Shown piece by piece: positions 268 through 64,000 of a stretch of DNA of 64,000 nucleotides. The notes beneath the pieces were generated by a model that saw only the letters and a list, made by a program, of their open reading frames with translations, searched no databases and was not told the DNA's origin. This DNA comes from Octopus vulgaris (Eukaryota): contig OX597817.1 of the NCBI GenBank assembly GCA_951406725.2, positions 107,570,001 to 107,634,000 of the forward strand. Direction: 5' to 3'. Both the position numbers and the translations under genes were made by a program. Positions within the stretch are counted from its first letter, which is position 1; the number at the start of each line of letters is the position of its first letter.

Positions 268-2620
268 CATCATCATCATCATTGTTAAACGTCTGCTTTC
301 CATGCTGGCATGGGTTGGATGGTTTGACTGAGGACTGGTGAGCCAGATGGCTGCACCAAGCTCCAATCTGATCTGGCAGAGTTTCTACAGCTGGATGCCA
401 TTCCTAACACCAACCACTCTGAGAGTGTAGTGGGTGCTTTTGCATACTACTGGCACGAGGGCTAGTCAGATTGTGCTGGCATTGGCCACGCTCAAATGGT
501 ATTTTTTTACATGCCACCTGCACAGGAGCCAGTCCAGCGGCACTGGCAATGACCTCGCTCAAATGTTGTCTTTCATGTGTCTCCGACACAAATGCCAGTA
601 AGGCAACACTGGTAACGATTACGCTTGAATGGTGCTTTTTACGTGCCACCGTCATGGGAGCCAGTCAGTGGCCTTGGTAACGATCACGCTCGGATGGTGC
701 TCTTAGTGCTCCACTAGCACGGATGCCAATCAAGCAGTGGTGTCATCGAGTTTGATTTTGATTTCACTTGCCTCAACAGGTCTTCGCAAGCAGAGTTTAG
801 TGTCCAATGAAGGAAAGGTATGCATAAGTGGGCTGGTTACACCCCTGGCATAGGCCATGGGTTATGGTCTCACTTAGCTTGCTGGGTCTTCTCAAGCACA
901 GCATATTTCCAAAGGTTTTGGTCACTAGTCATTGCCTCGGTGAGGCCTAATGTTCGAAGGTTGTGCTTCACCACCTCATCCCAGGTCTTCCTGGGTCTAT
1001 CTCTTCCAGAGGTTCCCTCAACTGCTAAGGTGTAACACTTTTTCACACTGCTATCCTCATCCATTCTCACCACATGCCTATACCAGCGCAATCGTCTCTC
1101 TTGCACACCACATCTGATGCTTCATAGGTCCAACTTTTCTCTCAAGGCACTTACACTCTATCGAGTATGCACACTCACATTACACTTCCAGCAGAGCATA
1201 TTGGCTTCATTCCTTGCAAGCTTATGCATGTCCTCAGCAGTTACAGCCCATGTTTCACTGCCATGTAGCATGGCTGTTCATACACATGCGTCATACAGTC
1301 TACCTTTTACTCTGAGCGAGAGGCCCTTTGTCACCAGCAGAGGTAAGAGCTCTCTGAACTTTGCCCAGGCTATTCTTATTCTAGCAGCTACACTTTCAGA
1401 GCACCCCCAACCCCCCGCTACTGACTTGGTCACCTAGGTAATGGAAGCTATCAACTACTTCTAGTTTTTCTCCCTGGAATGTGGCAGAAGTTGTTCACTG
1501 CGCATTTTCAGTGTTTATTGCTCTTGAGCATCTGCCACATACAAAAACTATCTTCCCAGTTAGCCTTCCTTTGATATTGCTGCACCTCTTATGTGTCCAT
1601 AGCTTACACTGGGTACATCTTATAGAGTTTCTACCTATGCCTTTTCTACAGATCGAGCAGGGCCATCTACTTGAAGGGATTTGTGGTTTGCCTGCCTTCC
1701 TACTTATTAGGACTTTGGTTTTAGCTAGGTTGGCTGTAAGGCCCTTCGATACTAATCCTTGCTTCTACACCTGAAACTTCTCCTGTAATTCTGATAGTGA
1801 CTCAGCATTTAGAGCAAGCTCATCAGTATAGAGAAGTTCCCAGGGGCATCTTGTCTTGAATTCCTCTGTTATTGCCTGGAGGTCTATGATAAATAGGAGG
1901 GGCTGAGGACTGAACCTTGATAGACCCCTACTTCTACCTGAAATTCTTCAGTGTACTCATTGCCAACCCTCACCTTACTGACAGCATCCCTGTACATGGC
2001 TTGCACTGCTCTCACTAACCATTTCTATCCCTAGCTTCCTCATTGACCACCAGATAAGGGATCGGGGGACCCTGTCAAAGGCTTTCTCCATGTCAATGAA
2101 AGCCAGGTACAGAGGTTTATCTTTGGCTAGGTATTTTTCCTGCAGCTGTCTTACTAGAAATATAGCATCAGTGGTGCTTTTCCCTGGCACAAGCCCAAAC
2201 TGCATCTCATCTAAACTGACTCTCTTCCTAATTAGTTGGGTTATGACCCTCTCCATGACCTTCATTAGCTGATCCAACAACTTGATACCTCTGTAATTAT
2301 TTGTATCTAAACCATCATCTTTACCTTTGTAGCAGTTGACTATGGTGTTGCTACACCAGTCATTGGAGATGACTCCTTCATGTATCACCTGGTTAACTAT
2401 ACAGGTGACTAGGCTATAGCCGACACCGCCAGATATTTTGAGCTTCTCTGCGGTAATTCCTGATGGGCCAGGGGCTTTCCCTGTCTTCATACTCTTAATT
2501 GCTTTATCTACAAAGGTACTGTCAATTCTGATAGCTGGTCCCTCTGTTGGGTCAACATTTGGCAGACTCTCTCCCATTCATTCTCTTTATTGAGCAACCT
2601 TTCATAGTAGCGTCTCCAAT
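268..2620 (-). mobile_element. 5'-truncated RTE-clade LINE (RT domain, C-terminus, 3' UTR and (GAT)n tail), frameshifted
   Basis: ORF 1975-2577 has MKTGKAPGPSGI, YKGK...NYRGIKLL, QFG, FIDMEKAFDRVPR. The catalytic motif is degenerated to ELLYTDEL near 1815-1845. ORF 870-1106 has the RTE C-terminus RRLRWYRHVVRM...GRDRPRKTW. (CAT)n at about 268-281 is the tail. No endonuclease domain. Confidence 0.92.
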
Positions 2621-59400: not shown

Positions 59401-60881
59401 TATTTTGATGTGTTTGACTGTACAATATTCCATTCAAAATTTGGTTTTGAATAAAATGCTAAATTAATAATTTTGAGAAAATCTTTAGATCAATTTTTCA
59501 GCTTATGTAATATTAATCTTTGATAGAATATAAGATTTGAAGTACATTCAATGTGATAAGCAGTATTATAGTATACTGTACTGTTAACAGTTACGACTAG
59601 TATTTGAATTGCTTTTTGTAGTATATATAGTAAGTTTGTTAGCAGCTAGACAGCATAAAACCCCATGAGGCTATCAATACAGTCAGGTGAAATGGAATGA
59701 AATAAACAGAGGAATAAGACATTCTGAAAATTTATTTTTGGTTAAATTTTATTTTGATTATACTGGAATGGAATCACCTGTTTCTTTCAGACTAAAAGAG
59801 TTAAACACTGCTTGAGAAATCTTAGTGCAGAACAGGTGCTGTAAACATTCAATTTCTTGAATTTACTGCTGGTTATATAAAATTTTCATCTACTCTCCAA
59901 TCTTACTTATAACATCTAGGTCTGTTCAATGAGGGGTAACCTGGGGATGAGTGATCACAATTGCTAAATTTAACTGGTGGAATTGAACATTAACTATACT
60001 ATCACTTGATTGTGTAAAAATAAAAAAAAACAATAACAAAATGGCAACAACAATATAAACTATGTCTACTCCTTCTTTATGGGCTTATGCAAAATAAATA
60101 AATAAATGATAAATGCAGACAGATATTTTGCTGGAGGCTTGATAACAGGTAAAGTATTTGATTTCAAAACTGTACTCAAAAAGTTCTTCTTAGAATAAAG
60201 CAAGAACAAATCCTGACATAAAAAAAAATCTAGCAGCAGCAGTAGTAATAGTAGTAGTAGTAGTAGTAATACTAAAAAGGGTGTATTTATTATATAAAAT
60301 TTATACTTAATGGCAGAATCATTGAATAAACATGGTATCATATCACCAGCTTTTAGATAATAAGTTCATGGCTTGTTATAGAGAGATGCATTTTGCCTCT
60401 TAGTTTGTGTTCCATTGACTTGAAAACAGACCTTCTTTCTTGAAAATTTGTAAAGTAAGACACTAAAATTGAAGAGCGTAAGTGGTGGTCTACATTAACA
60501 AGTTTATAATATAAAATAAGTTGGTTTGCCATTAGTCTTTTGTGAGTGTTTCCTCTCATTCTTTGAAGTAGAACGCTGCCATAAATATTTGAATTCTCTT
60601 CTGGAAAATTACCTGCTGTTTCCTTGCCAAATGGAAATTATAGCATTTACTTGACATTACTGAAAACATTGTATTTTTTTTAAAAAGACTAATTTTAGAT
60701 GTTTAATCATGTAGAAAGAGAGAAGAAACAAAGGAATACGTCATGGTACTTAAACATCCAGCCTTTGATAAGTACCTTGTCATATTTGACAAATACATCT
60801 CTAGCTCCTGAGTATTTTCTCATTGAGATATACATAATATATATATATATATATATATAAAGAGAGAGAGAGAGAGACAGA

Positions 60882-61060
60882 TGGGCTGAATCCTGGAAGT
60901 ACTACAATACCAGGCCAACCTGTGGCAAAGGCGGAGCAAGCCCCTAACACTTCGCCTTGTTCTAAAAATCAGTTTAATATCGATGGCCCCAAATAGGGAC
61001 CGTATCAGATATTAAGCTGATAAGAACGGATACTACACTTTGATCTTAGCCAAAAGGCTG
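60882..61060 (-). pseudogene. U2: U2 snRNA copy lacking about the first 9 nt (retro/pseudogene)
   Basis: Minus strand: CAGCCTTTTGGCTAAGATCAAAGTGTAGTATCCGTTCTTATCAGCTTAATATCTGATACG ... Sm-like ATTTTT ... stem-loop IV CCTGGTATTGTAGTACTTCCAGG. The 5' ATCGCTTCT is absent. Confidence 0.93.
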
Positions 61061-61980
61061 GTCTATGTGATATGGAAAGACGGCTCATCTGGAAAAGTAA
61101 CTTAGACCCCGCTACATGTCTGAATTCAAGAACTGAACTTTTCGCTCATGCCCACATGTGGCCAAATATTTGTTACATTTTTGGTCACCCAGAGACTACA
61201 GATAGAACTTGCTTTCTATATTGTGTCCACGCACAAGCTTTTTATCTCTTTATACTTTACTTATGTTTCTTATATATTTTTATTCATATTTTTTTACATA
61301 TATTTCTTACATATTTATAGTGATATTGATTTATAGGTTTATTGCTTATATATTTTTTACACATAATTTTTCTGTATTCTACCTTCCACCCTGCATTTTT
61401 CCCTGTGCATATATAGACGTGTATATGGATTCTTTTGTGCGTGCGTGTGTGTGCGTATATAGTTGTGTGCGTGTGTGGGTGCATGTGTGATATAGATGTG
61501 TTTTACTCAGTGTTTTTACACATTTTCTTGTATTTTTGCCTTTAACCCTGCTTTTTCTTGTGTATAGACGTATGTATGATCTTTTTTGTGCGTGTGTCTG
61601 TGTGTGAGCGTATATAGGCGTGTGTGTGTGTGCATGCATATGGGTATGTGTGAATATAGACATGGTTGACTCTTTGTATACCCCCTTAGATGAATGTATA
61701 CATTTAGGTGCACGCATGTGGGTGTGCGGGCGTGCATGTGTAGGTATGAACATGTGTGCTTACGCGATACTCCCTTCCCTCACTTAGCAGTCATCCAAAT
61801 AGCTCTTTTGTCTTAATAACGGTCAACCACACAGTAATTTCCCTTTGTATAACAGTCATTTTTCATAGCATTTTTCCGATGGCCAGATAACTGAAGAGAT
61901 GGCGGCGTGGATTTCCACCTTGGCATCCAAAACTCGGAGTTTTATCATGGCTACCGAATAATTGTCACATATTACATTTA
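61061..61980 (+). mobile_element. 5'-truncated PLE 3' end (GIY-YIG C-terminus, 3' region and pseudo-LTR hammerhead)
   Basis: LCDMERRLIW...CLNSRTELF, then after a frameshift SCPHVAKYLL*, resembles the PLE endonuclease tail LCxxEKxxI...LNxRxEL...CxH..KxLL. HHR motif at 61882-61951. Ends in (TA)n. Confidence 0.65.
61882..61951 (+). ncRNA. Hammerhead motif, GAAA mutated to AAAA
   Basis: gccagataa-CTGAAGA-gatg..catcc-AAA-actcggagt-t-ttatcatggc; stems I (gataa/ttatc, gcca/tggc), II and III all pair. Confidence 0.65.
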
Positions 61981-61981
61981 C

Positions 61982-62023
<42 letters not shown>

Positions 62024-63561: not shown

Positions 63562-63815
63562 TGTATGCATATATGTATGTATATATATGTGTATATAGAT
63601 GTATGCATATATGTATGTATATATATGTGTATATAGATGTATGCATATATGTATGTATATATATATATGTGTATATATATGTATGTATATGTATTTTATT
63701 ATCTCCCCTTTTTCCTAGCCCTCCTGTGTGACCCCTCTGTCTGGCATTTGCCATGATAGATCGTTAGCCACTAAACCTTTTTCTATTTTCTCTCCTTGTT
63801 TATTTTTGCATTCCT

Positions 63816-63851
63816 GTCTTTCGAAGAGCATAGGCCTGAAACGTAAAAGAC
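63816..63851 (+). ncRNA. Degenerate minimal hammerhead motif
   Basis: gtcttt-C(T missing)GAAGA-gcataggcct-GAA-acgt-A-aaagac; perfect 6-bp stem I and palindromic stem III. Confidence 0.5.
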
Positions 63852-63939
63852 TTTCTCACTTCCCGAACTTTAAACTAATACATCTGTTTGTTGTTTACAC
63901 ACCTGTCTTCATCCTTTGCTTTTTTGTAAATTCTCACTA

Positions 63940-64000
<61 letters not shown>

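What the first reader, a model, noticed from the sequence alone, without database searches (positions are those of the whole stretch)
60882..61980. U2 snRNA fused head-to-head to a truncated Penelope-like element
Seen: a U2 copy (minus strand, first ~9 nt missing, branch-point pairing GTGTAGTA intact) directly abuts at 61060/61061 a plus-strand sequence resembling a GIY-YIG C-terminus. That sequence ends in a hammerhead motif, and the composite is bounded by (TA)n on both sides. Known: snRNA-LINE chimeras are usually co-oriented, and U2-targeting elements (Utopia, Keno) insert within U2 genes further from the 5' end. Inference: U2 occupies the place of the inverted 5' arm typical of PLE insertions, suggesting the PLE RT copied a cellular snRNA as a second template.
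Basis: partly seen in the sequence, partly recalled or inferred. Interest (0 to 1): 0.75.

Follow-up and report, generated by a model that had tools for sequence, protein, structure and literature searches.

The report
U2 RNA caught by Penelope retrotransposon
A promoterless DNA copy of the U2 splicing RNA is joined head-to-head to the broken-off tail of a Penelope-type jumping gene, likely because both ends of one DNA cut were used to copy two different RNAs, which would help explain how this class of jumping genes makes its typical inverted ends.

Summary
A processed U2 copy (nt 10-191, mature 3' end, no gene flanks) is fused head-to-head, through a 2-nt overlap, to the last 927 nt of a 5'-truncated Hydra-clade Penelope-like element (PLE) ending in a type I hammerhead at (AT)n. 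In 15 of 29 sister copies an inverted piece of the element itself occupies this place. Both parts are of similar age, and ACAGAT lies at both outer borders. A second, older case (U2 against a hammerhead mini-element) exists elsewhere in the genome: 2 of 80 non-gene U2 loci; none among the U1, U4, U5, U6 loci examined. Best reading (0.6): twin priming, with U2 as second template. Rival (0.3): a U2 retrocopy later joined to a PLE by deletion; 10 of 29 sister copies abut unrelated DNA, and no empty site could be read. Inverted snRNA chimeras are published for mammalian L1; I found none for PLEs. The scan noted a similar Penelope/U2-derived fusion in a shark genome (unchecked). The locus is a dead single copy; its value is as a marker of PLE mechanism.

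The parts
60828..60878 (.). Left flank: (TA)n (60828-60859), AA, (GA)8, C; compound microsatellite, inferred left half of the target
60877..60882 (+). ACAGAT, left copy of a 6-nt direct repeat; AGAT is also the complement of the last four U2 bases (nt 188-191)
60879..61060 (-). Processed U2 snRNA copy, nt 10-191; ends at the commonest retrocopy 3' end; no promoter, no gene 3' flank; 6 differences in 180 nt from the nearest genes, 4 private, plus one at the junction
61042..61053 (+). 12-nt stretch (complement of U2 nt 17-28) identical to a site in the PLE family 33 nt upstream of the point where this copy is truncated
61059..61060 (.). Junction: 2-nt overlap shared by U2 (nt 10-11) and the PLE (CG in both parents, TG here, a CpG-type change); 6 of the last 8 bases match between the two parents
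61059..61205 (+). Last 48 codons of the PLE ORF (C-terminal end of the endonuclease domain, CxxC..E..N..CxH), frameshifted near 61145, stop at 61203-61205
61206..61985 (+). PLE 3' untranslated region / pseudo-LTR, ending at the family's inner (short, tail-less) terminus
61880..61953 (+). Type I hammerhead motif; predicted cut after 61941 (GUU); core G at 61929 mutated to A in this copy
61980..61985 (+). ACAGAT, right copy of the direct repeat; it is also the family's normal short terminus
61984..62021 (.). Right flank (AT)19

Best explanation
A processed U2 copy and a 5'-truncated Hydra-clade Penelope-like element are joined head-to-head here, likely as the product of one insertion in which both ends of a cut were used as primers on two different RNAs (twin priming). 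Inferred steps: (1) the element's GIY-YIG endonuclease cut both strands at a (GA)n-ACAGAT-(AT)n border; (2) the bottom-strand 3' end primed on the PLE RNA at its inner start site and was copied 927 nt leftwards; (3) the top-strand 3' end, ending in AGAT, paired with the last four bases of mature U2 instead of a second PLE start site and was copied rightwards to about nt 10, where U2 retrocopies commonly stop; (4) the two cDNA ends annealed through a short overlap, perhaps first held by the nearby 12-nt match, and repair closed the gap. U2 thus takes the place of the inverted arm that sister copies build from PLE RNA. The product is a dead, single-copy pseudogene chimera. Shown: anatomy, RNA origin of U2, family context, similar ages. 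Inferred: single event, the enzyme that copied U2, the order of steps.
For: U2 has neither the upstream nor the downstream flanks seen in the U2 genes and ends at nt 191, the modal 3' end of retrocopies (11 of 38); 25 of 31 3'-intact retrocopies start within nt 1-17. 15 of 29 sister PLE copies have an inverted 5' segment, 7 of them the element's own 3' terminus facing outward; in L003 and L028 the arm holds tail sequence that the direct copy lacks, so it was primed separately on RNA. Arm/body junctions in L011, L028, L029 show 6, 3 and 3 nt of overlap, like the 2 nt here. Divergence: PLE 16 of 394 sites (4.1%), U2 6 of 180 (3.3%; 4 private), Fisher p 0.8 and 0.33. ACAGAT at both outer borders. 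Second case L117: U2 nt 14-189 head-to-head, 1-nt overlap, with the last 70 nt of a hammerhead-bearing (TA)n mini-element; 2 of 71 loci against 0.02-0.03 expected from local element density. A purified PLE protein cleaves and extends both strands in vitro (PMC11167929). The same geometry is published for U1, U2, U5, U6 with L1 (PMC4476161).
Against: No empty site was read. 10 of 29 sister copies abut unrelated, non-microsatellite DNA at their 5' end, so deletion-type joins may be common, and 12 of 71 U2 retrocopies have a microsatellite at their 5' side where a PLE could land later. The right ACAGAT is the family's own terminus and AGAT on the left is U2's own end, so only two bases of the repeat are independent. 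The age test has little power. The chance estimate is rough: the element library included the L117 family, element density is probably undercounted, and without the window case it is 1 of 70. No head-to-head PLE partner among 51 U6 loci, 41 U1 loci, 30 U4 loci or 3 dispersed U5 loci. U2 is copied very often here without any PLE.
Confidence: 0.6

Rival explanations
1. Two steps: a U2 retrocopy was first written into the microsatellite (by a LINE enzyme or break repair); later a PLE cut the (TA)n on its 5' side, and the PLE cDNA end invaded the U2 5' end by microhomology, deleting the DNA between them.
For: U2 retrocopies are abundant and 12 of 71 have a microsatellite at their 5' side; 10 of 29 sister PLE copies have 5' joins to unrelated DNA, two of them (L012, L026) to a cut-off SINE-like sequence; microhomology joins without TSD are described for PLEs (PMC3846280); the 12-nt match would help this invasion just as well.
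Against: The deletion would have to remove all of the intervening tract and stop in the first ten bases of U2, inside the usual run-off zone; ages are alike; ACAGAT at both borders; a second case with the same geometry.
Confidence: 0.3
2. One event, but U2 was copied by another enzyme (a LINE RT or a repair polymerase) patching the free end of a PLE-made break, so the PLE RT did not act in trans.
For: LINE-type enzymes here use U2 and U6 freely: 26 of 41 long U2 retrocopies carry a SINE-like tail; short U2 pieces primed at (TA)n are common (14 of 29); a U1/U1 palindrome in (TA)n exists without PLE sequence (L250).
Against: The PLE protein extends both strands in vitro and sister copies show that the left end is normally copied from PLE RNA. 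Sequence alone cannot tell the enzymes apart.
Confidence: 0.07
3. A U2-targeting element inserted at the 5' end of a real U2 gene and destroyed its promoter.
For: U2-targeting elements exist (Utopia, Keno; PMC4640811); the family has a 12-nt match to U2.
Against: The gene 3' flank is also absent; the PLE's 3' (primed) end is at (AT)n, not in U2; none of the 29 other U2 loci had this PLE within 1.5 kb; no Rfam match beside 28 sister copies scanned; no recombinant at the 12-nt site among 52 matches; Utopia and Keno join U2 at nt 39.
Confidence: 0.02

Closest known systems
Inverted snRNA/L1 chimeras made by twin priming (Doucet et al. 2015, PMC4476161; passages read)
   Same: snRNA in opposite orientation at the 5' end of a 5'-truncated retrotransposon; complementarity between snRNA and the top-strand primer; includes one U2/L1 case.
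   Different: Partner there is L1 or SVA, with clear TSDs, and the snRNAs are 3'-truncated; here the partner is a Hydra-clade PLE, U2 keeps its mature 3' end, and the target is a microsatellite with only a weak 6-nt repeat.
Antisense 5S rRNA/L1 and tRNA-half/L1 chimeras (Law and Burns 2026, PMC13174262; passages read)
   Same: Host RNA copied from the opposite end of the break, giving opposite orientations; explained by twin priming.
   Different: Mammalian L1, hundreds of cases dated by orthologous sites; here two cases and no orthologous site.
Inverted 5' pLTR arms and optional tail of canonical PLEs (PMC8557442 passages and section 11; PMC3846280 passages and Discussion; PMC11167929 parts 1-2 of 4)
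   Same: Same position and orientation of the arm, short overlap at the join, two alternative 3' start sites, (TA)n target.
   Different: The arm is a host RNA. PMC3846280 explains head-to-head arms by self-priming on an antisense PLE template, which cannot yield a sense copy of mature U2.
Co-oriented snRNA chimeras and SINEU (PMC4494074, passages)
   Same: snRNA sequence fused to a retroelement 3' end; such U2-SINE and U6-SINE chimeras are abundant in this genome.
   Different: Those are co-oriented and arise by template switch or ligation; SINEU is a multicopy family, this fusion is single copy.
TERC-ITS loci of rodents (PMC2246262, passages)
   Same: A telomerase-related RT leaves two oppositely oriented RNA-derived pieces in one break, with primer microhomology.
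   Different: Both pieces come from telomerase RNA; no endonuclease.

Membership tests
Hydra clade of EN+ Penelope-like elements (PMC8557442) | Single ORF with RT followed by C-terminal GIY-YIG endonuclease | tested here: met
   Sister copies read through RT motifs into the EN region; Pfam GIY-YIG only weak, E 0.13, 1 of 4 peptides; atlas neighbours at 0.96-0.97, one cluster named GIY-YIG, one set with 18% PF01541.
Hydra clade of EN+ Penelope-like elements (PMC8557442) | CxCX5C linker before the endonuclease | tested here: met
   CSCRDKNLC in sister copies L007, L014, L002, L028; outside the part kept in the window.
Hydra clade of EN+ Penelope-like elements (PMC8557442) | CxxC and CxH motifs on either side of conserved E and N; no CCHH motif | tested here: met
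   CGLC..E..N..CP(Y/H) in sister copies, CPH in the window copy; absence of CCHH judged by eye only.
Hydra clade of EN+ Penelope-like elements (PMC8557442) | Canonical hammerhead motif and insertion in (TA)n | tested here: met
   Core in 18 and 14 of 20 copies; 3' ends run into (TA)n or (CA)n(TA)n. Cleavage not tested.
Hydra clade of EN+ Penelope-like elements (PMC8557442) | RWK and DKT N-terminal motifs; placement in the RT tree | not tested
   No N-terminal region fetched; no reference PLE proteins available to the tools.
Twin-priming snRNA chimeras (PMC4476161) | snRNA in opposite orientation directly at the 5' end of a truncated retroelement | tested here: met
Twin-priming snRNA chimeras (PMC4476161) | Complementarity between snRNA end and top-strand primer | tested here: inconclusive
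   AGAT fits U2 nt 188-191 if the target held ACAGAT, but the empty site is unknown.
Twin-priming snRNA chimeras (PMC4476161) | One target-site duplication around both parts / both absent together in orthologues | tested here: inconclusive
   6-nt repeat, only 2 nt independent; contigs of other samples break at the microsatellites.
Functional U2 snRNA gene | Intact 5' end with conserved upstream and downstream gene flanks | tested here: not met
   nt 1-9 and both flanks missing.
U2-targeting elements Utopia / Keno | 3' end of the element joined to U2 nt 39; RLE or APE endonuclease | tested here: not met
   The 5' truncation, not the 3' end, touches U2, at nt 10; GIY-YIG-type element.
SINEU-like snRNA-headed SINE | Co-oriented snRNA head, many copies with one shared junction | tested here: not met
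   Opposite orientation; junction seen once among 52 matches.

The most novel reading that the evidence does not exclude
Penelope-like elements insert by priming both ends of a double-strand cut independently and in trans, so that their hallmark inverted arm is a second cDNA from any RNA whose end fits the primer; in this family U2 is actively brought in by a 12-base pairing between U2 nt 17-28 and the element's own RNA just upstream of the join. PLEs would then be a general, orientation-marked source of host-RNA retrocopies in microsatellites.
Probability: 0.15. Interest if true: 0.75.

Novelty: new variant of a known kind. Interest (0 to 1): 0.45.

Why it matters
How PLEs form their inverted 5' arms is open: PMC8557442 lists it as needing an in vitro system, PMC3846280 proposes self-priming on an antisense transcript, and PMC11167929 shows extension of both strands but leaves later steps unvalidated. 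A host RNA in the arm position is a natural label: a sense copy of mature U2 cannot come from an antisense PLE transcript or from fold-back of the PLE cDNA, so, if the single-event reading holds, it shows two-ended priming on separate RNA molecules. This is directly testable with the existing two-strand assay. The locus itself is unlikely to have a function.

Tried and rejected
Empty site: contigs from four public runs (organisms A, B, D, E) cover both flanks but break at the microsatellites and are swamped by repeat copies, so no joint could be read. The window's U2 variant at 61028 leaves a residue near single-copy depth in all four runs, but one other retrocopy (L121) carries the same variant, so this is not counted as evidence; whether the junction is present in other individuals stays open. 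Targeting through the 12-nt match: shuffled U2 reaches a 12-nt match in 16 of 1000 trials (noticed after the fact), and no product joined at that site was found. Other snRNAs as arms: none among 48+3 U6 loci, 41 U1 loci (most are genes), 30 U4 loci (24 truncated), 3 dispersed U5 loci of 26 listed; only the best-scoring copies were scored and 12 of 42 U4 matches were not fetched. Host RNA arms on sister PLE copies: no Rfam match in 20+17 loci; eight extended 5' flanks did not show whether the ten non-PLE joins are captured RNAs or deletions. Count of compound (GA)n-(AT)n borders returned 0 and gave no background for ACAGAT. Pfam found nothing for the 28-aa window peptide or a 130-aa RT piece. 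tRNA, 5S and rRNA were not surveyed. Literature searches for a PLE case: 0 papers; 3 papers, none on this by listing; PMC2246262 read in passages; subscription journals and all supplements were not seen.

Full report
Observation. Rfam finds one RNA in the window, U2 on the minus strand at 149 bits. Compared with the 29 next-best U2 copies, the window copy covers nt 10-191 (61060-60879). Most of those copies are genes with an intact 5' end, shared upstream sequence and a shared 3' flank; the window copy has neither flank. It ends at nt 191, the commonest end among retrocopies (11 of 38 ending at nt 185 or later), and 25 of 31 3'-intact retrocopies start within nt 1-17. It is therefore a cDNA of mature U2, not a damaged gene.

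The right-hand element. 61061-61260 has 919 first-look candidates, of which 40 were scored and 30 fetched. Sister copies continue upstream through an endonuclease-like domain into RT motifs. The window keeps the last 48 codons, with one frameshift, and the stop at 61203-61205. The CxCX5C linker, the CxxC..E..N..CxH end, the hammerhead and the (TA)n target match the description of the Hydra clade (PMC8557442 section 11); no tree was built, and Pfam support for GIY-YIG is weak (E 0.13; atlas neighbours). The hammerhead (61880-61953, type I, predicted cut after 61941) has CTGANGA in 18 of 20 copies and (C/T)GAAAC in 14 of 20; the window copy has lost one core G. Copies end either at a short site, as here, or about 65 nt further on, like the two start sites and optional tail shown for PAc (PMC11167929, parts 1-2 of 4 read).

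Junctions. U2 and PLE share two bases at 61059-61060 (CG in both parents, TG here), and 6 of the last 8 bases agree. A 12-nt identity between the complement of U2 nt 17-28 and the PLE lies 5 nt from the join on the U2 side and 33 nt upstream of it in the family; shuffles reach such a match in 16 of 1000 trials, and no copy joined at that site was found among 52 matches. ACAGAT stands at both outer borders (60877-60882, 61980-61985). Only AC is independent evidence, because AGAT is U2's own end on the left and the whole hexamer is the family's terminus on the right. It does suggest why U2 fitted here: a top-strand end in AGAT pairs with the last four bases of U2 (inference).

What normally sits in this place. 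Of 29 sister copies, 15 have an inverted segment at the 5' end (7 the element's own terminus facing outward, 2 a 3'-UTR piece with unresolved outer end, 6 internal), 3 run into TA, 10 abut unrelated DNA, and 1 extends beyond the fetched stretch. These are the best matches to my query, not a random sample. In L003 and L028 the arm contains tail sequence that the direct copy lacks, so it was primed separately on RNA rather than folded back from the direct cDNA. Overlaps at arm/body joins were 6, 3 and 3 nt in three of five copies examined; two were unclear.

Age. The PLE part differs from the family majority at 16 of 394 sites; U2 differs from the nearest genes at 6 of 180 (4 private); Fisher p 0.8 and 0.33. 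This is compatible with one event but would not detect a modest gap in time.

Recurrence. Three pattern searches (43, 52 and 25 matches; all new places fetched) gave 80 distinct non-gene U2 loci: 71, one more wrongly merged there (L150), and 8; segmental duplicates L122-124 count once. Two are head-to-head with a truncated hammerhead element: the window and L117, where an older U2 copy (nt 14-189, 85% identical) meets the last 70 nt of a (TA)n-targeting mini-element with a 1-nt overlap; the flank at its U2 3' end is AT-rich but not a clean (TA)n. Expected from local element density: 0.02-0.03 among 71, a rough figure that is probably too low; leaving out the discovery case it is 1 of 70. No such partner was found for U6 (51 loci), U1 (41, mostly genes), U4 (30) or U5 (3 dispersed of 26), nor any Rfam match beside 28 sister PLE copies. 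The arrangement is real, rare and single-copy.

Against the single-event reading. U2 is reverse transcribed often here without PLEs: 26 of 41 long retrocopies carry a co-oriented SINE-like tail, 14 of 29 short ones run into (TA)n, and 12 of 71 have a microsatellite at their 5' side. With 10 of 29 PLE copies joined to unrelated DNA, a later PLE insertion with deletion up to the U2 5' end is possible. Public contigs of four runs cover both flanks but break at the microsatellites, so neither the empty site nor the junction could be read in other samples.

Mechanism. I favour twin priming in one insertion (0.6): both strands cut, PLE RNA copied from the right end, U2 from the left end, cDNA ends joined by a short overlap. 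A PLE protein cleaves and extends both strands in vitro. Two-step origin 0.3; one event with a different enzyme for U2 0.07; insertion into a U2 gene 0.02.

Comparison with what is known. Inverted U1, U2, U5 and U6 chimeras with L1, explained by twin priming, are described in PMC4476161 (passages), and antisense 5S and tRNA chimeras in PMC13174262 (passages). So the kind is known. I found no PLE case in searches; subscription journals and supplements were not seen. For PLEs, PMC3846280 (passages and Discussion) explains head-to-head arms by self-priming on an antisense template and reports host genes moved between pLTRs; a sense copy of mature U2 as the arm is not explained by that model. Utopia and Keno join U2 at nt 39 (PMC4640811, passages); SINEU is co-oriented and multicopy (PMC4494074, passages); TERC-ITS loci are a looser parallel (PMC2246262, passages). 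An unchecked note of this scan reports a Penelope insertion with a head-to-head U2-derived repeat inside one TSD in a shark genome (e1-9935232); I formed my reading before seeing it and did not test it.

Verdict. Observation confirmed; interpretation partly supported; new variant of a known kind; interest 0.45. The locus is a dead chimera, useful as a marker of how PLEs build inverted ends.

Noticed in passing
L250:1234-1525 (G000:C2:69362480-69362771): Two 5'-truncated U1 copies head-to-head (nt 13-164 inverted, nt 28-164 direct; 2-nt overlap), both 3' ends running into (TA)n, with no PLE sequence. Both arms share a variant and a few flank bases, which suggests fold-back of one cDNA.
   Followed up: partly
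L061-L098, L109-L149; L185-L232: Co-oriented U2-SINE and U6-SINE chimeras are very common: 26 of 41 long U2 retrocopies and most dispersed U6 copies carry the 3' part of one of several SINE-like repeats after a few unmatched bases. U2 chimeras this frequent seem unusual compared with mammals (from passages of PMC4476161, PMC4494074).
   Followed up: partly
L112-L152, L265-L289: Short U2 pieces (about nt 9-17 to 37-44) end at the branch-point pairing sequence and 14 of 29 run straight into (TA)n, as if the microsatellite end primed there.
   Followed up: partly
L143 (G000:C12:74516732-74519766): U2 nt 15-52 joined co-oriented, with no gap, to the 3' part of another (TA)n-targeting repeat family: a likely template jump onto U2.
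   Followed up: no
L238, L240, L249, L254-L257, L263, L264; L332-L353: U1 retrocopies that keep about 18 nt of gene 3' flank and run into (ATT)n, and U4 pieces (nt 1-9 to about 73) that also run into (ATT)n: snRNAs copied at (ATT)n sites by another element.
   Followed up: no
window 63696-63942: A short (TA)n-flanked repeat related to the hammerhead-bearing mini-elements; similar copies in many loci.
   Followed up: partly
L316:3895-6551 (G000:C17): A LINE fragment forms a long palindrome (about 1.5 kb arms, 94% alike) that abuts the 5' end of sister PLE copy L030.
   Followed up: no
L230 (G000:C2:23366674): Two U6 copies directly in tandem.
   Followed up: no
window 1975-2577 (minus): 200-aa open frame that looks like a LINE reverse-transcriptase fragment (label from recall).
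   Followed up: no
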